A stretch of 64,000 nt of DNA. It comes from Bythopirellula sp. Its GTDB lineage: Bacteria; Planctomycetota; Planctomycetia; Pirellulales; Lacipirellulaceae. The notes under the pieces are model-generated. The model was given only the letters and a program-made list of their open reading frames with translations. It was not told the DNA's origin and did no database searches. Where the stretch lies: assembly GCA_965216565.1 (NCBI GenBank), contig OZ244170.1, positions 4,768,001 to 4,832,000 on the forward strand, in the 5' to 3' direction. A program made the translations under genes and the position numbers. Positions within the stretch are counted from its first letter, which is position 1; every line of letters starts with the position of its first letter. Of the stretch, positions 30,630 to 35,566 are shown piece by piece.

Positions 30630-30869
30630 TTACCAAACGTAGACACCAGTTCCGTAGTACACAGGGGCCGGAGCGGCGTAGACCACTGGGGTACGATACA
30701 CAGGGCCTGCTACTACGCGTCGTGCAACGGGGTATGGAGGCAAGACGGTTCGAGCGACAGCCCGACGAACAGGTGCTCGGCGGCGAATCACCCAGGCGTC
30801 GGCGTCTTGAGCCGCGGTGAAACTGAACATTCCGATAACTGCCAGCGAGAGTAGTACTTTCTTAAACAT
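30630..30869 (-). CDS. Small secreted Arg/Pro/Val/Tyr-rich protein (79 aa)
   Basis: RBS AAGGAG; signal peptide MFKKVLLSLAVIGMFSFTAAQDADA; mature part has PVY/PVV repeats and ends GVYVW. It has its own promoter and terminator. Confidence 0.85.
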   Translation of the reverse strand: MFKKVLLSLAVIGMFSFTAAQDADAWVIRRRAPVRRAVARTVLPPYPVARRVVAGPVYRTPVVYAAPAPVYYGTGVYVW

Positions 30870-30947
30870 GATGGGTCTCCTTTTCTTGTCCCCCAGCGGC
30901 GATTGGACGTGTGGTTTGTTGATGGGCCGCTTCTGAGTAAGAACTAA

Positions 30948-30963
30948 TGCATTCACCGTGCCA
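30948..30963 (-). promoter_or_regulatory. Sigma-54 (-24/-12) promoter
   Basis: Minus strand TGGCACGGTGAATGCA matches TGGCACG-N4-(T)TGCA with GG-N10-GC spacing, about 80 nt upstream of the start codon. Confidence 0.8.
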
Positions 30964-31209: not shown

Positions 31210-31491
31210 TTAGAAGCCGAAGGACAGCGAGATCCCACTTCCGCCACGATAATAGCGGGAACCACCATAGTAGCCAGGTCCACCGTGGTAGTAGCTAGGG
31301 CCACCGTAGTAGCGAGCACTACGGTAGTAGCTGGGTCCACCGCGATAATAACCGCCACCGCCGTAGTAGGCTCCATAGCCGCCGCCATAGCCACCGCCGC
31401 GATAACACCGGCCCGCCTGGGCTTCTGAGCCATTGCTGACGATGAATGACGCACCAACAACTGCCAGAACGAGTAACATCTTTCGCATCAT
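31210..31491 (-). CDS. Small secreted Gly/Tyr-rich protein (93 aa)
   Basis: RBS AAGGAG; signal peptide ending EAQA; YYxGGPxY repeats; ends ISLSFGF. Confidence 0.87.
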   Translation of the reverse strand: MMRKMLLVLAVVGASFIVSNGSEAQAGRCYRGGGYGGGYGAYYGGGGYYRGGPSYYRSARYYGGPSYYHGGPGYYGGSRYYRGGSGISLSFGF

Positions 31492-31590
31492 ATCTGTCTC
31501 CTTGGAGCCAATCGGGCTCCGCTTACTTTGGGGAGGGGAATCTACGGCCAGCTGCTGTCAATTCCCTGCTCGCTAGCCAGGGGACTTAAT

Positions 31591-31606
31591 TGCACGACCC
31601 GTGCCA
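31591..31606 (-). promoter_or_regulatory. Sigma-54 (-24/-12) promoter
   Basis: Minus strand TGGCACGGGTCGTGCA, GG-N10-GC, about 100 nt upstream of the start codon. Confidence 0.8.
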
Positions 31607-31875
31607 GTCTTGTCAGAAAATCTCGTAAGACACTGATACATAGGTCTTTAGGACGAATCTGATGCCAAGCTAGCCTTGATCGGGAATATGAATAATGCCC
31701 TCGCCGTGACGACAAGTGTGGTCAATTGGGCCACGCTTCGAGAGGTGTAAACTATTGCCTGAAAAGGGTTTAAGCTTTTCTGGTTGTCGTCGTGCTATTG
31801 GATACTGAAGAGCTAACGGTGGGTGAAAGCGGTTGGAATAGGGCGAGATCAAGGAATACCAATGCCGCCAACTTT

Positions 31876-31891
31876 CGGCACGGGCTTTGCA
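31876..31891 (+). promoter_or_regulatory. Sigma-54 (-24/-12) promoter, divergent
   Basis: CGGCACGGGCTTTGCA, near-consensus YGGCACG-N4-TTGCA. Confidence 0.8.
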
Positions 31892-31901
31892 TTATTTACA
31901 A

Positions 31902-32150
31902 GCAGAGCCGACAGGCAGTGCAGATTCCATTTGAAGAGGCAAACGACGATGGGGTCGGAACACAGAAGAGGTAGCACTGGGGTCGGACACAAAGAGGCAG
32001 AAGCAGAGAGGCCCTTAACTCTATAAATGACAACAACATCTGACGACTATTCCCTCCCCATTAGTCGCTTTATGTCGCTGTCAAAAGGGTCTAAGCCACG
32101 CAGGCGAGTCAGGGTGCTAGACGGAGAACCTTGGCTCGCCTGTTGCTTTT
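31902..32150 (+). ncRNA. Candidate sigma-54-dependent structured small RNA (~250 nt)
   Basis: Bracketed by a promoter and a terminator. Contains TGGGGTCGGA(A)CACA repeats, four AGAGG motifs and a three-segment hairpin (32009-32092) with loop TTCCCTCCCCAT. No convincing CDS. Confidence 0.6.
32101..32150 (+). terminator. Terminator hairpin closing the candidate sRNA
   Basis: CAGGCGAGTCAGGGT (32101-32115) pairs with ACCTTGGCTCGCCTG (32128-32142), 15 bp with 2 G-U pairs, followed by TTGCTTTT. Confidence 0.75.
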
Positions 32151-32404
32151 GAAGTGTATTAGAATCACGCAGGTGTTCGATTCCGATACAGTCAGTTCTG
32201 CCCAGGCGTCAATTTGGCACGCTGGATGGGAGGCTCTAAAAAAAATTCTGGCTCCAAAGCTCGCGGCGTTCTGCTGTGAAAATAGGTTGGATTCCCACCT
32301 AAAATCGTGCAACTACTCTCGTGATGAGTGGTTTAATAAAATGTGCGAGCATCGCGATCCCTCAGGTCCTTCACCCTCCATTATTTCTAGGGCATCCTAA
32401 AAGC

Positions 32405-34228
32405 ATGGCTAGACCGGCATTTGAAACTCGCGGTATTCGGCCCTGGTTGGTGATTCCTTTCAATTGGGCCTTGTTCGCTGTTTTTACGTCCGGCTTCCAA
32501 TCGTCCATTGCAGCGGAACCACAAACTTCCGGTCAAAGTAACGATCACACATACGAGCAGATCATCGAGCGAATTGATCAGCTCATCGAGCAAGGTTGGC
32601 TAGACAACGACCTCAGGCCTTCTAAAGAAGCCAGCGATGCCGAGTGGTGTCGGCGAGTTTATCTTGATGTCATAGGGCGGGTACCAACAGTCAAAGAACT
32701 GCGCACCTACGTTTCGCAACGAGGGCTCGATAAACGACGCGCATTGGTCGATCGGTTGCTGGGTAGCCAGTACAGCGAGGAATACGTTCGCCATTGGACT
32801 AGCTATTGGACCAATGCATTAATTGGACGGACCGGTGGTCGCGAGCGTCGCTCGATCACCAATCGCCCGTCGATGGAAAGCTATCTCAGTGAATCACTCG
32901 CCGAGAACAAGCCTTACGACGTCCTCGTCGAGGAACTGCTGACCGCCACTGGCGGGGCCTACCCCGAAGCAGAGGACTTCAACGGAGCAGTTAACTTCTT
33001 GGTCGAAAAGATGGACGAGAACGGCGTCCAAGCCACGGCCAAGACGGCAGAAATTTTTCTCGGCACCGCAGTGCAGTGTACCCAGTGCCACAATCATCCG
33101 TTTAACGAGTACCGTCAGAATCAGTTTTGGGAACTCAATGCTTTCTTCCGTCAAACGCGCGTAGCACGCGAGCGGGACGATGACGATAACCGCCGACTTG
33201 GCAGCTTGGTGAATGTCAATTTTGCAGGCGAAGGACGAAGTTCCATATCCGACGATCGCCGCGAGATCTTCTTGGAGATGCGAAACGGCAAGCTAGTCGA
33301 TTCCGAGCAGGCCGCTCAACTCGAAGCCCCCCTTTACTACGAACTCCGTAATGGCCAGGTGCGTGTCGCTTATCCCGTGTTTGTCGACGGCACCACTCTC
33401 AAAGAAGTGCTTGAAGAGCGAGATTCCCCCTACGGCAACAGTGGCGTGCTGGATCACGTCGACCGTCGAGCGGAGCTGGCCAGGCTGGTTGTTTCCGATC
33501 GGCAATTCGATCGAGCATTGGTCAACCGCTTGTGGGCCTACTTTTTTGGGCATGGGTTTACCAAACCCTTCGACGACATGGGTCCTCACAACCCCGAGTC
33601 GCATCCCGAGTTGATCGAGGAATTGGGTTTAGCGTTTCGCAATTCAGCCTTCGACCTGAAATCCGCTATTCGCTGGATCGTACTGAGCCGCCCTTATGCT
33701 TTGACGAGCCGCTATTCCCGTGGCAACCAAGCCGACGAACCTACCGAGGGCGTTACGCCACAGTTCAGTCGCTTTTATGTACGACAGATGCAGCCCGAGC
33801 AGCTTTATGAATCGTTACTGGTGGCAACAGCTGCGGAAGCCACGGTCGATGCGGAGCGTCGCGAGGGGATGAAGGATCGCTGGTTGCGGCAGTTCTCGAC
33901 TGCATTCGGAACAGACGACAATTCTGAGTCGTCCAGTTTCAATGGCTCGATTACCCAAGTCCTAACGATGATGAATGGCGACTTGATCGAACGGGCCTGC
34001 AGCACCGGAAACGGAAGTTTTTTAGATCGCGTTGCCAATGACAGTAGCCTTTCGAATCGAGAGAAGATTCAACACTTGTACCAGGCCGGACTGTCTCGGT
34101 TGCCTTCCAAAGAAGAGACAAATCTTTGCAATCAGCTCTTGGTCTCACGTCGTGGCGACGTGGTAGGCAGTTTGCAAGACATTTGGTGGGCGGTGCTTAA
34201 TAGTAACGAGTTTATTTTGATCCATTGA
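32405..34228 (+). CDS. DUF1549/DUF1553 (PSCyt2/PSD1) domain protein
   Basis: WCRRVYLDVIGRVPT, NKPYD, FLGTAVQCTQCHNHPF, VNRLWAYFFGHG and WAVLNSNEF. Start uncertain. Confidence 0.92.
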   Translation: MARPAFETRGIRPWLVIPFNWALFAVFTSGFQSSIAAEPQTSGQSNDHTYEQIIERIDQLIEQGWLDNDLRPSKEASDAEWCRRVYLDVIGRVPTVKELRTYVSQRGLDKRRALVDRLLGSQYSEEYVRHWTSYWTNALIGRTGGRERRSITNRPSMESYLSESLAENKPYDVLVEELLTATGGAYPEAEDFNGAVNFLVEKMDENGVQATAKTAEIFLGTAVQCTQCHNHPFNEYRQNQFWELNAFFRQTRVARERDDDDNRRLGSLVNVNFAGEGRSSISDDRREIFLEMRNGKLVDSEQAAQLEAPLYYELRNGQVRVAYPVFVDGTTLKEVLEERDSPYGNSGVLDHVDRRAELARLVVSDRQFDRALVNRLWAYFFGHGFTKPFDDMGPHNPESHPELIEELGLAFRNSAFDLKSAIRWIVLSRPYALTSRYSRGNQADEPTEGVTPQFSRFYVRQMQPEQLYESLLVATAAEATVDAERREGMKDRWLRQFSTAFGTDDNSESSSFNGSITQVLTMMNGDLIERACSTGNGSFLDRVANDSSLSNREKIQHLYQAGLSRLPSKEETNLCNQLLVSRRGDVVGSLQDIWWAVLNSNEFILIH

Positions 34229-34300
34229 GTGGGTGTTCTTTGTCAGTTGTTAGTTGATCGTTGTCAGCCGTGCTGCTACGCAGCACAAGGATCCCGAGCC

Positions 34301-35566
34301 ATGAATAGTCTTATCACCCCCCGCGGCATGAACCGCCGACACTTCATTTCGCACCTGGCAGGATCAGCAGCCTTGGCATTGCCGGCGTTTAGCTTGACGC
34401 GTGCCCTCACGGCCAACGCTGCGACTCTCAAGGGCAATCATAAGTCGTGCATCTTGCTGTGGATGGGTGGCGGTCCGCCTTCGATCGACATGTGGGATAT
34501 GAAACCGGGTGCAGCGACGGGCGGGCCGTTCAAGGCCATTGGCACCACCGGCGAGGGGCAGATCAACGAGCAACTCCCCAAGGTTGCCGAGCAGATGAAG
34601 CACCTATCCATCGTCCGATCAATGAGCACCCGCGAGGCAGATCACGAGCGCGGTCGCTATTACATGCACACGGGCTATGTGCCCAATCCCAATGTGGAAC
34701 ACCCCAGCTATGGCTCGGTGGTGTCTCACGAACTGGAACATCAACTCGGCAATTTAGAGATTCCCCCCTTCGTGTCGATTGGCGGACCGAGCGAAGGGCC
34801 CGGCTTTCTCGGAATGGCTTACGCGCCATTCCAAGTTGATTCGAACGGTCGCGTTCGAGATGCCAAGGCGACCGTCTCCCAGGGCCGGATGAAGGATCGT
34901 ATGAAGGTGCTCGAAGTACTCGAAAAGCGTTTCATCCGGGAAGATCGAGGACCCGCGGCTGCGGAGCATGCAAAAGTGCTCGACAACACGCTTGCCATGA
35001 TGACGAGCCAACAAATGGCGGCCTTCAATGTGCAGCAGGAGGACCAAGGGGCGAAAGAACGATATGGCGAGAATAACTTTGGTCGTAGCTGCTTGATGGC
35101 TCGGCGACTCGTGGAAACCGGAGTTCCCTTCGTCGAAGTCAATTTCGGGGGATGGGATCTGCACCAGAATTGTTTCGATCAGCTCGGCACCAAGCTGCCA
35201 CAGCTAGACACGGCGATGAGCGCATTGGTCGATGATTTGAATCAACGGGGTCTCTTGGACGATACCATCGTGCTGTGGATGGGTGAGTTTGGCCGAACTC
35301 CCCGAATCAATGCCAATGCCGGGCGCGATCATTGGGCGCGAAGCTGGAGTGTGGTGGTTGGTGGAGGCGGCATCGCCGGTGGTCGGGTTGTGGGAGCAAC
35401 CAACGAAGACGGCACCCGAGTAACAACCGAGCCCTACAGCTCGGAGGACCTTATGGCCACGGTTTGCCAGGCAATGGGCATCTCGCTGCAGACGAACTTT
35501 ACCGCTTCCAATGGCCGTCCCATGAAAATTGCCGGCGGTGGTAAGGTGATTGCTGATTTGCTGTGA
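34301..35566 (+). CDS. DUF1501 domain protein (Tat-exported)
   Basis: MNRRHF Tat motif, ILLWMGGGP..DMWDMKP, CLMARRLVE.GV.FV, WDLH and GEFGRTP..N..GRDHW. Confidence 0.95.
   Translation: MNSLITPRGMNRRHFISHLAGSAALALPAFSLTRALTANAATLKGNHKSCILLWMGGGPPSIDMWDMKPGAATGGPFKAIGTTGEGQINEQLPKVAEQMKHLSIVRSMSTREADHERGRYYMHTGYVPNPNVEHPSYGSVVSHELEHQLGNLEIPPFVSIGGPSEGPGFLGMAYAPFQVDSNGRVRDAKATVSQGRMKDRMKVLEVLEKRFIREDRGPAAAEHAKVLDNTLAMMTSQQMAAFNVQQEDQGAKERYGENNFGRSCLMARRLVETGVPFVEVNFGGWDLHQNCFDQLGTKLPQLDTAMSALVDDLNQRGLLDDTIVLWMGEFGRTPRINANAGRDHWARSWSVVVGGGGIAGGRVVGATNEDGTRVTTEPYSSEDLMATVCQAMGISLQTNFTASNGRPMKIAGGGKVIADLL

What the first reader, a model, noticed from the sequence alone, without database searches (positions are those of the whole stretch)
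31876..32150. Unannotated sigma-54-driven structured non-coding RNA candidate (~250 nt)
Seen: a near-consensus -24/-12 element (CGGCACGGGCTTTGCA) points into a region with no credible protein, which closes with a 15-bp hairpin plus U-rich tail (32101-32150). The 5' half is purine-rich, with two direct repeats (TGGGGTCGGAACACAGAAGAGG 31950-31971; TGGGGTCGGACACAAAGAGG 31978-31997) and AGAGG four times. The 3' half folds as a three-segment rod: 32009-16/32085-92, 32028-39/32072-83 and 32044-49/32062-67, topped by the loop UUCCCUCCCCAU. G-U pairs in the stems suggest selection on RNA rather than DNA. Known: repeated GGA-type motifs typify CsrA/RsmA-sequestering RNAs, and C-rich loops typify sRNAs that pair with ribosome-binding sites. 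Inference: a regulatory RNA combining both modules, which I cannot match to a family I know.
Basis: partly seen in the sequence, partly recalled or inferred. Interest (0 to 1): 0.88.

Follow-up and report, generated by a model that had tools for sequence, protein, structure and literature searches.

The report
Sigma-54-driven decoy RNA of Pirellulales
A conserved non-coding RNA of about 250 bases, preceded by a sigma-54 promoter, carries repeated sites that match the active end of a second small RNA encoded elsewhere in the genome, so it probably acts as a switchable sponge for that RNA.

Summary
Window 31902-32153 (+) is a real, structured, non-coding RNA gene ("RNA1"). It has no Rfam match. 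It occurs once per genome and was found only in this planctomycete order, whose named records are labelled Pirellulales. All 49 homologues examined carry a TGGCAC-N5-TTGCA (-24/-12) box directly upstream. The helices covary.

The purine-rich repeats are instead decoy sites. GGGGYYGGAACAGAGAAGAG(GC) is the complement of an invariant 23-nt seed (GCCUCUUCUCUGUUCCGGCCCCG) that sits just before the terminator of a second, unlinked small RNA ("RNA2"). RNA2 lies at G000:C1 about 4663309-4663477, has a sigma-70-like promoter and also has no Rfam match. RNA2 is strongly matched in 126 of 151 order genomes, and 61 of 62 genomes with RNA1 have it. Predicted RNA1:RNA2 duplexes are -44 to -55 kcal/mol in five genomes.

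Two further features are conserved. A tandem palindrome (TGT-N11-ACA twice) lies directly behind the RNA1 terminator and is probably the activator's enhancer. RNA1 also sits upstream of one DUF1549/DUF1553-DUF1501 operon in 20 of 23 loci.

Best reading: a sigma-54-induced sponge or partner of RNA2. No expression data were available.

The parts
31877..31892 (+). Sigma-54 type promoter CGGCACGGGCTTTGCA (GG at 31878-79, GC at 31889-90). The predicted start is near 31902.
   Evidence: Sequence. 49 of 49 homologues have at least 8 of 11 matches to TGGCAC-N5-TTGCA directly upstream of the RNA, most of them 10-11 of 11. Conservation starts abruptly at this box, with nothing conserved upstream. The genome has one rpoN match and 16 strong Sigma54_activat matches.
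31902..32153 (+). RNA1, the predicted transcript of about 250 nt. Family lengths are 215-301 nt, median 251.
   Evidence: CM R1 hit at 31900-32153, 187 bits. Fold z-score is -3.29. Covariation is shown. It is a single copy in the genome.
31933..31941 (+). Extra GAAGAGGCA half-site, which matches the 5' half of the RNA2 seed.
   Evidence: AAGAG, AGAGG and GAGGC occur 2.1-2.4 times per RNA against 0.4-0.5 expected.
31950..31971 (+). Repeat 1, the full decoy site UGGGGUCGGAACACAGAAGAGG. It is the complement of the RNA2 seed: 13 contiguous pairs, one mismatch, then 9 pairs in this genome.
   Evidence: core alignment A7; duplex -43.9 kcal/mol; shuffled seeds -28.7 +/- 3.5.
31978..31999 (+). Repeat 2, a split decoy site: UGGGGUCGG, a linker, then AAGAGGCA.
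   Evidence: GGGGYCGG and RAGAGG are invariant in 39 of 39 rows of A7.
32005..32013 (+). Fourth AGAGGCC copy. It overlaps the 5' strand of the outer rod helix.
32009..32092 (+). Three-segment rod hairpin with the loop UUCCCUCCCCAU (32050-32061).
   Evidence: 24 pairs, 92.5% of cells paired, 6 pairs with changes on both sides, slid registers 53% or less. The C-rich loop is invariant in the 10 closest relatives but missing from several clades.
32101..32151 (+). Intrinsic terminator: stem 32101-32115 with 32128-32142, then a U-rich tail.
   Evidence: In helix 7 of A5, 94.8% of cells are paired and 11 of 15 pairs change on both sides.
32156..32191 (.). Tandem DNA palindrome TGTATTAGAATCACGCA-GG-TGTTCGATTCCGATACA (two TGT-N11-ACA units). 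It is a candidate activator (bEBP) enhancer or operator.
   Evidence: It is the only site scoring above 22 bits in the 5.2-Mb genome; none scored above 22 bits in a shuffled genome (its maximum was 18.3). 25 of 27 members outside the matrix's training set score above 18 bits at 0-2 nt after the RNA end. 0 of 49 upstream regions and 0 of 47 control regions exceed 12 bits.
32406..35566 (+). Linked operon: a PSCyt2(DUF1549)/PSD1(DUF1553) gene (ORF 32321-34228, likely start 32406) followed by a DUF1501 gene (34229-35566).
   Evidence: Pfam. The same gene order occurs downstream on the same strand in 20 of 23 loci with enough flank. DUF1501 orthologues are 57-75% identical across the order.

Best explanation
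RNA1 (window 31902-32153, + strand) is a stand-alone small RNA. It is transcribed from a sigma-54 promoter when an unidentified enhancer-binding activator is switched on, and it ends at its own strong terminator.

Its conserved single-stranded purine-rich boxes are decoy sites for the invariant pyrimidine-rich 23-nt seed of a second small RNA, RNA2. There is one full site (GGGGYYGGAACAGAGAAGAG), one split site (GGGGYCGG, linker, GAAGAGGCA) and further GAAGAGGC half-sites. RNA2 is about 120-170 nt, has a sigma-70-like promoter, and carries the seed directly 5' of its terminator. In this genome it lies 136 kb away.

Once made, RNA1 pairs with RNA2 and so sequesters it or triggers its decay. That would change RNA2's control of its own, still unknown, targets. 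The tandem TGT-N11-ACA palindrome just behind the RNA1 terminator is most likely where the activator binds, which would place the whole RNA gene inside the activation loop.

Shown by computation: conservation, the promoter motif, structure covariation, complementarity, co-occurrence and the uniqueness of the palindrome. Inferred: transcription itself, sigma-54 dependence, which RNA regulates which, and the enhancer role.
For: 1. Independent gene.
- The -24/-12 box is present in 49 of 49 members.
- The terminator covaries.
- Conservation begins at the promoter and ends after the palindrome.
- In G011 the downstream neighbour is a glycosyltransferase and the best DUF1501 match is only 41% identical, yet RNA1 is intact at 259.7 bits.
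- In L068 the downstream gene is convergent.
- Family f19 has RNA1 core hits, but no DUF1501 orthologue was found there at E<=1e-100.

2. Partner RNA.
- The core model R2 finds, in most genomes, a second locus that matches repeat 1 only.
- On the opposite strand of that locus, 8 of 8 genomes inspected show three things: TGGACA/T-N16-17-TATCAT/TATGAT/TAAGAT, the seed, and a GC hairpin followed by U6-7.
- 23 consecutive seed positions are invariant in the 8 genomes.

3. Pairing.
- Duplex energies are -43.9, -51.4, -52.1, -54.9 and -52.1 kcal/mol in five same-genome pairs. Shuffled-seed means are -28 to -33; z is -4.4 to -7.1.
- The own seed against 300 random genome segments gives a mean of -24.9 and a minimum of -38.2.
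- The longest contiguous pairing with the invariant seed has a median of 15 (range 9-23) over 49 RNA1s. Shuffled seeds give median 8 (max 13); the reversed seed gives median 10 (max 13).
- The only variable positions inside GGGGYYGG are C/U, in 39 of 39 rows. Both letters pair with the G of the seed.

4. Co-occurrence.
- RNA2 scores at least 46.9 bits in 126 of 151 order genomes.
- 61 of the 62 genomes with an R1 hit have such an RNA2 match. The exception, G254, has only a weak one.
- Family f14 lacks both RNAs: 0 of 12 and 0 strong of 12.
- Neither RNA was found outside the order in 150 phylum genomes. The 1 and 2 hits there are bare terminators.

5. Enhancer.
- See the palindrome entry under parts.
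- No similar element lies upstream of the promoter.
- No second sigma-54 box lies downstream: 0 of 49 reach 9 of 11 matches on the same strand.
Against: - No transcript data exist. No RNA holder was listed, so neither RNA is shown to be made.
- Both partners are nearly invariant, so true compensatory changes between RNA1 and RNA2 could not be observed.
- In this genome the full site has a mismatch (13 + 9 pairs), and some members reach only 9-11 contiguous pairs, which overlaps the controls.
- The GGGG part of each site is also used in intramolecular helices, so it may not be free.
- Strong synteny with one operon (20 of 23 loci) would also fit a cis-acting role.
- The direction of control (RNA1 sponges RNA2, or the reverse) is not decided by any result.
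- Hfq was not found in this 94% complete genome, so any chaperone is unknown.
- Putting the enhancer downstream is unusual. The palindrome could instead be an operator for the operon.
- The main covariation figures come from an alignment fitted to the model's own structure.
Confidence: 0.6

Rival explanations
1. The pairing is the same but the direction is reversed. RNA1 would be the regulator that acts on mRNAs or other targets. RNA2, made from a housekeeping-type promoter, would be a constitutive antagonist or buffer that sets a threshold for RNA1.
For: The complementarity and co-occurrence are symmetric. RNA1 has extra modules, namely the C-rich loop hairpin and the long rod, which a pure sponge would not need. 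No mRNA target of RNA2 could be found by perfect matches: 31 hits of 11 nt or more, against 25 for a reversed control.
Against: RNA1 carries several copies of the site (a mean of 5.8 stretches of 7 bp or more, against 3.2 for shuffled seeds). That is the layout of a decoy. RNA2 has one invariant 23-nt seed next to its terminator, which is the layout of a seed-bearing regulator. The C-rich loop is missing in several clades.
Confidence: 0.17
2. RNA1 is a cis-acting leader of the DUF1549/DUF1553-DUF1501 operon, either a riboswitch or a protein-dependent attenuator. The sigma-54 promoter would drive the operon, and the hairpin would be a conditional terminator.
For: RNA1 lies on the same strand, directly upstream of the orthologous operon, in 20 of 23 loci, and also in diverged variants from other families (7 of 12 loci checked). 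No other conserved promoter was recognised between terminator and gene apart from an A/T tract. The conserved core is flanked by covarying helices, as in riboswitches.
Against: RNA1, its promoter, its terminator and the palindrome are all kept where the operon is not downstream (L008/G011, L068). The terminator stem has 15-19 GC-rich pairs, and I saw no conserved alternative pairing (by eye only; no systematic test). Family f14 has the orthologous DUF1501 in 12 of 12 genomes but no RNA1. A cis reading does not explain the unlinked complementary RNA2.
Confidence: 0.12
3. RNA1 is a protein sponge. It would titrate CsrA or another RNA-binding protein that recognises the bipartite GGGGYCGG...GAAGAGG boxes. 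RNA2's locus would resemble it only by chance or through shared ancestry.
For: The genome has 12 CsrA-family matches. Two GGAAC motifs about 20 nt apart are conserved in many members. In some clades one of them sits in a hairpin loop. The boxes are repeated.
Against: A GGA lies in a predicted loop in only 15 of 49 members, and the GGA count is 2-10. No Csr/Rsm family matched in Rfam. The second locus carries the motif on the strand opposite to its promoter and terminator, so RNA2 holds the complement, not the motif.
Confidence: 0.08

Closest known systems
CrfA, the sponge of the SisA-D sRNAs in Caulobacter crescentus (PMC12559287; abstract and passages read)
   Same: A stand-alone, signal-induced small RNA whose job is to pair with and inactivate other small RNAs by masking their mRNA-binding site.
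   Different: There is no sequence or structure likeness. CrfA works with Hfq, which was not found here. CrfA is induced by carbon starvation; I saw nothing on its sigma factor. It has four sibling partners, whereas here there is usually one RNA2. All of the present case is prediction.
QrrX sponge and the Qrr sRNAs of Vibrio (mentioned in the discussion of PMC12559287; the original paper was not read)
   Same: A pair of sRNAs in which one is a sponge for the other, with a sigma-54/bEBP input into the circuit.
   Different: In Vibrio the sigma-54-dependent partner is the regulator (Qrr; LuxO/sigma-54 known to me from a reference title and from recall). Here the sigma-54-dependent partner is the multi-site decoy.
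GlmY/GlmZ of Enterobacteriaceae (PMC3045617, passages read; PMC4152352 and PMC7073468, listing abstracts only)
   Same: A sigma-54-dependent sRNA gene activated by a bEBP (GlrR) that binds TGT...ACA dyads (consensus TGTCN10GACA) in several copies. GlmY acts as a decoy.
   Different: The GlrR sites and IHF sites lie upstream of glmY. Here the dyads (TGT-N11-ACA, two copies) lie downstream of the terminator and nothing upstream is conserved. GlmY decoys a protein (RapZ), not an RNA.
CsrB/RsmY/RsmZ and CrcZ protein-sponge sRNAs (recalled; CrcZ's CbrB/sigma-54 dependence is also recalled)
   Same: Repeated short single-stranded motifs on a structured sRNA. CrcZ is also sigma-54-driven.
   Different: The defining GGA-in-loop (Csr/Rsm) or A-rich CA (CrcZ) motifs are not the repeated element here. 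The repeated element is the complement of another RNA's seed.

Membership tests
Sigma-54-dependent promoter | GG and GC doublets 10 nt apart within TGGCAC-N5-TTGCW, at a fixed distance from the transcript | tested here: met
   Window 31877-31892 matches 10 of 11 positions. 49 of 49 homologues match at least 8 of 11.
Sigma-54-dependent promoter | The organism encodes RpoN and enhancer-binding proteins | tested here: met
   One Sigma54_DBD match. There are 19 Sigma54_activat matches, 16 of them at E<=1e-45.
Sigma-54-dependent promoter | Activator binding sites (enhancer) near the promoter | tested here: inconclusive
   Nothing is conserved upstream. A unique tandem dyad lies about 255-290 bp downstream. 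Its binding protein is unknown.
Sigma-54-dependent promoter | Transcription lost in an rpoN mutant | not testable with these tools
   No expression data are available.
Base-pairing sponge/decoy sRNA | Own promoter and terminator, and non-coding | tested here: met
   The window's 41-aa ORF start (ATG at 32027) reads GTG in one and GAG in five of the six relatives in A2, and the alignment has 1-2 nt gaps inside the ORF.
Base-pairing sponge/decoy sRNA | Extended complementarity to the seed of another conserved sRNA, preferably in several copies | tested here: met
Base-pairing sponge/decoy sRNA | Partner and sponge occur together across genomes | tested here: met
   61 of 62 genomes with an R1 hit have a strong RNA2 match. 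Families f14 and f26 lack both. Detection of RNA1 is incomplete.
Base-pairing sponge/decoy sRNA | Physical interaction and an effect on the partner's level or targets | not testable with these tools
   This needs EMSA, RIL-seq or genetics.
Csr/Rsm-type CsrA-sequestering sRNA | Many GGA motifs, mostly in hairpin loops | tested here: not met
   There are 2-10 GGA per RNA. A GGA lies in a predicted loop of the 5' domain in 15 of 49 members.
Csr/Rsm-type CsrA-sequestering sRNA | Match to a CsrB/CsrC/RsmX/Y/Z model | tested here: not met
   No Rfam match at gathering score in the window or at E<=10 in 31300-32500.
Csr/Rsm-type CsrA-sequestering sRNA | CsrA present in the organism | tested here: met
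   12 PF02599 matches over the cut-off.
Riboswitch or attenuator leader | Always directly upstream of the regulated genes | tested here: inconclusive
   20 of 23 loci fit. Intact copies exist without the operon downstream.
Riboswitch or attenuator leader | A conserved alternative (antiterminator) pairing that competes with the terminator | not tested
   I inspected the alignments only by eye and noticed none. No systematic search was run.

The most novel reading that the evidence does not exclude
The sigma-54 activator binds the tandem palindrome behind the terminator, so the enhancer lies downstream and the complete sRNA gene sits inside the DNA loop. The RNA1/RNA2 pair would then be the post-transcriptional switch for the adjacent, highly conserved DUF1549/DUF1553-DUF1501 operon. 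That would be a first functional handle on a gene-pair family present in many paralogous copies in these genomes (e.g. 14 DUF1501 matches at E<=1e-60 in one genome) and of unknown role.
Probability: 0.25. Interest if true: 0.8.

Novelty: new member of a known kind. Interest (0 to 1): 0.66.

Why it matters
I found no paper characterising a small RNA in a planctomycete. The searches were made, over open-access full text only, and Rfam 15 has no match for either RNA.

This finding gives a concrete, testable circuit that is conserved across an order:
- a sigma-54/bEBP input;
- a multi-site decoy RNA;
- an invariant-seed partner RNA;
- a unique 36-bp protein-binding palindrome that could be used to fish out the regulator.

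It also offers two new RNA families for Rfam, and a regulatory clue to one very conserved DUF1549/DUF1553-DUF1501 operon. If the palindrome is the enhancer, this would be a natural case of a sigma-54 enhancer placed behind the gene it activates.

Tried and rejected
- **Known RNA family.** None at gathering score in the 64-kb window. Only chance-level rows at E<=10 (best mir-61, 22.5 bits against a cut-off of 77). None for eight RNA2 loci.
- **Small protein.** The ORFs at 31792-31974, 31823-32026 and 32027-32152 are not kept in relatives. The longest sense ORF per member is 11-84 aa, but shared frames were not tested beyond the A2 alignment.
- **CsrA sponge.** See the membership test.
- **C-rich loop targets.** GGGGAGGG precedes a long open frame in 14 of 195 occurrences (0.072), against 0.045-0.111 for six permuted controls.
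- **Targets of the GAAGAGGC boxes.** GCCTCTTC: 9 of 255 (0.035), against 0.052-0.116 for controls.
- **RNA1 pairing with the operon leader.** z ranged from -2.5 to +2.0 in 23 loci, and the unrestricted duplexes were too long to be meaningful.
- **RNA2 seed pairing with the operon leader.** -19 to -28 kcal/mol, against shuffled means of -20 to -24.
- **Perfect-match RNA2 targets.** 31 matches of 11 nt or more, against 25 for the reversed motif.
- **A second sigma-54 promoter downstream.** 0 of 49 reach 9 of 11 matches on the same strand.
- **Exact TGT-N11-ACA tandem pattern in the genome.** There is one other site, inside or at the start of a bEBP gene. About one chance match is expected (my arithmetic), and it scores below 22 bits with the family matrix, so I dropped it.
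- **The collection pattern scan.** It was too loose.
- **Expression.** No RNA holder was listed. Four same-label runs laid nothing on 31700-32900.
- **Earlier notes of this scan.** Nothing was found.
- **Hfq.** Not found with PF17209 in this 94% complete genome.
- **Cognate activator.** Not identified. No bEBP gene lies within the flanks examined.
Full report
**1. What is in the window.**

- The -24/-12 box CGGCACGGGCTTTGCA lies at 31877-31892.
- The two direct repeats lie at 31950-31971 and 31978-31997.
- There are four AGAGG copies.
- The three-segment rod is 32009-16 with 32085-92, 32028-39 with 32072-83 (10 of 12 pairs in this copy) and 32044-49 with 32062-67. Its loop is UUCCCUCCCCAU.
- A 15-16 bp hairpin at 32101-32142 is followed by a U-rich tail.

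The 254-nt stretch folds to -89.9 kcal/mol, against -74.1 +/- 4.8 for shuffles (z -3.29). The tool's simple terminator scan did not list the hairpin. Rfam 15 has no match, either at gathering score in the whole window or among rows at E<=10 around the site.

**2. It is a conserved, non-coding, structured RNA ("RNA1").**

*How the family was found.*
- BLAST found the stretch 31952-32190 in 6 of 24 genomes of the same genus and in none of 16 other families of the order. It found 13 of 119 genomes of the family.
- A covariance model built from seven sequences (R1) reached much further. It matched 62 of 151 genomes of the order, counting the window's own, always once per genome.
- It matched no genome outside the order among 150 from the phylum. 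The single hit there is a bare terminator.
- Named records holding members are labelled Pirellulales, Pirellulaceae, Bythopirellula, Bremerella, Planctomycetia or Planctomycetota.
- R1 misses diverged variants. I inspected 12 R1-negative genomes upstream of the orthologous operon. Seven have a sigma-54 box followed by the same motifs. Five have nothing: all three from family f14 and two of the three from f22.
- A sequence-only model of the core (R2) gave two-repeat matches in at least 69 of 151 genomes. That count comes from the listed rows only, and 69 further matches were not listed.

*Structure.*
- On 46 rows aligned to the model, 87.9% of cells form pairs, against 69.3% in shuffles.
- 52 of 60 pairs change on both sides.
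- The covariation score is 0.344, against 0.147 for shuffles (0 of 500 as high) and 0.088 or less in slid registers.
- That alignment is fitted to the structure.

*Coding.* The ATG of the 41-aa ORF (32027) reads GTG or GAG in the six relatives, and the alignment has 1-2 nt gaps inside the ORF.

**3. The promoter.**

All 49 members with upstream sequence have at least 8 of 11 matches to TGGCAC-N5-TTGCA directly before the RNA. Most have 10 or 11. Conservation begins abruptly at this box. The genome has one rpoN match and 16 strong activator-domain matches. I take sigma-54 dependence as very likely, but it has not been shown.

**4. What the repeats are.**

The most over-represented words are AAGAG, AGAGG, GAGGC and GGAAC, at about 2 copies per RNA against about 0.4 expected. 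The core is nCGGGGYYGGAACAGAGAAGAG, then 0-16 nt, then GGGGYCGG, then 4-8 nt, then GAAGAGGCA.

*A second locus.* When R2 was run over the order, most genomes gave a second, unlinked hit to the first repeat alone. In this genome it is G000:C1:4663416-4663443 on the minus strand. I inspected eight such loci from three families. They all have the same arrangement. On the strand opposite to the motif there is:
- a sigma-70-like promoter, TGGACA-N16-17-TATCAT, TATGAT or TAAGAT (TGGACT in one genome);
- a variable body;
- the invariant sequence GCCUCUUCUCUGUUCCGGCCCCG;
- directly fused to it, a GC-rich hairpin and six or seven U.

This is a second small RNA, "RNA2". It is about 118-169 nt long. Here it spans about 4663309-4663477 on the plus strand, 136 kb from RNA1. 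It lies between an inositol-monophosphatase-family gene and an unknown ORF.

*RNA2's seed is the complement of RNA1's repeat.*
- Predicted duplexes in five same-genome pairs are -43.9 to -54.9 kcal/mol. Shuffled seeds give -28 to -33 (z -4.4 to -7.1).
- Up to 21-23 contiguous pairs form. The median is 15 over 49 RNA1s. Shuffled and reversed controls give medians of 8 and 10, both with a maximum of 13.
- Repeat 2 and the extra GAAGAGGC copies match the two halves of the seed.
- The only variable letters within GGGGYYGG are C or U, and both pair with the seed's G.

*Distribution of RNA2.*
- A model of the seed plus terminator (R3) scores at least 46.9 bits in 126 of 151 order genomes.
- It finds nothing real in 150 other genomes of the phylum.
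- 61 of the 62 genomes with an R1 hit have a strong RNA2 match. Families f14 and f26 lack both RNAs.
- Rfam has no match for the RNA2 loci.

**5. The palindrome behind the terminator.**

Directly after the U-tail lies a 36-bp element made of two TGT-N11-ACA units (window 32156-32191).
- A matrix built from 24 members (25 of the 26 then in hand showed it; one near-duplicate was left out) finds exactly one site above 22 bits in the 5.2-Mb genome, and it is this one. A shuffled genome has none above 22 bits, with a maximum of 18.3.
- Of 27 members not used for the matrix, 25 score above 18 bits at 0-2 nt from the RNA end.
- No upstream or control region exceeds 12 bits.
- The two arms vary independently of each other. 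That speaks for a protein-binding DNA site rather than an RNA hairpin.
- No second sigma-54 box follows it.

Sigma-54 promoters need an activator bound nearby, and nothing upstream is conserved. bEBP sites are typically such dyads; the GlrR sites at glmY, for example, are TGTCN10GACA (PMC3045617, passages read). I therefore read the element as the enhancer, placed downstream. That is an inference. It could instead be an operator for the operon that follows. An A/T run of 7 nt or more lies 60-110 nt after the RNA end in 30 of 49 loci, against 4 of 48 control regions. I have no explanation for it.

**6. Neighbourhood.**

- In 20 of 23 loci with enough flank, RNA1 lies 150-600 nt upstream, on the same strand, of a DUF1549/DUF1553 gene followed by a DUF1501 gene.
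- The DUF1501 protein is 57-75% identical across the order, while paralogues are about 40-48% identical. So this is one specific orthologous operon.
- Upstream genes differ from locus to locus.

The link is not obligatory.
- G011 keeps an intact RNA1, promoter, terminator and palindrome in front of a glycosyltransferase gene. Its best DUF1501 match is only 41% identical.
- L068 has a convergent gene downstream.
- Family f19 has RNA1 core matches but no orthologue at E<=1e-100.
- Family f14 has the orthologue in 12 of 12 genomes but neither RNA.
- Neither RNA1 nor the RNA2 seed shows more than chance complementarity to the operon leader.

**7. Reading.**

The best-supported mechanism is that RNA1 is an independently transcribed, sigma-54-induced small RNA whose conserved boxes capture the seed of RNA2. 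That makes it a sponge or antagonist, as CrfA is for SisA-D in Caulobacter (PMC12559287). The opposite direction of control is possible. A cis-leader role for the operon and a protein-sponge role are weaker rivals. CsrA is abundant in the genome (12 matches), but the CsrA-type motif layout is not met.

**8. Limits.**

- No transcript evidence could be obtained; the attempts are listed under Tried and rejected.
- The genomes are samples of their groups and many are fragmented.
- Model E-values are rough.
- Detection of RNA1 is incomplete, so co-occurrence is firm only in one direction.
- Invariance of both partners prevents a true covariation test of the intermolecular pairing.
- The literature searches cover open-access full text only.

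Noticed in passing
outside the window: G000:C1 about 4663309-4663477 (+); L202:910-1078, L210:1397-1565: A second conserved small RNA (RNA2). It has a sigma-70-like promoter TGGACA-N17-TATCAT, an invariant 23-nt seed directly before its terminator, and no Rfam match. It is strongly matched in 126 of 151 genomes of the order. This became central to the explanation.
   Followed up: yes
window 32238-32247 and equivalent places in other loci: An A/T run of 7 nt or more (AAAAAAAATT here, often followed by TTCTGG) lies 60-110 nt after the RNA1 end in 30 of 49 loci, against 4 of 48 control regions. It could be a promoter element for the operon or a DNA bend. Unexplained.
   Followed up: partly
own genome, 12 places, e.g. 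L021-L028: There are twelve CsrA-family matches over the Pfam cut-off in one 5.2-Mb genome, while Hfq was not found. This is an unusually large CsrA paralogue set.
   Followed up: no
window 31210-31491 (-) and 30630-30956 (-): Two small predicted secreted proteins lie upstream of RNA1 on the other strand. One is a 93-aa protein rich in Gly and Tyr (GGYYGG-type repeats). Neither has a Pfam match.
   Followed up: no
G195, G177, G214, G193: Four genomes have two strong RNA2 matches (for example 77.2 and 67.1 bits in G195), so sibling copies of the seed-bearing RNA exist in some lineages.
   Followed up: no
L191 (family f22), about 250-300 nt after its sigma-54 box: This diverged variant appears to carry three rather than two 17-bp dyad units after its terminator-like hairpin, and a longer, different RNA body.
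   Followed up: no
G000:C1:1608754-1608789 (L149:1501-1536): The only other exact TGT-N11-ACA-N2-TGT-N11-ACA match in the genome lies at the start of a 744-aa sigma-54 activator gene. About one such match is expected by chance, and it scores low with the family matrix. It could still be worth testing as an autoregulatory site.
   Followed up: partly
window 31712-31772 (+): A sub-threshold resemblance to the Rfam algC motif (18.4 bits against a cut-off of 33.8; E 1.1) in the long intergenic region upstream of RNA1. It is probably chance.
   Followed up: no
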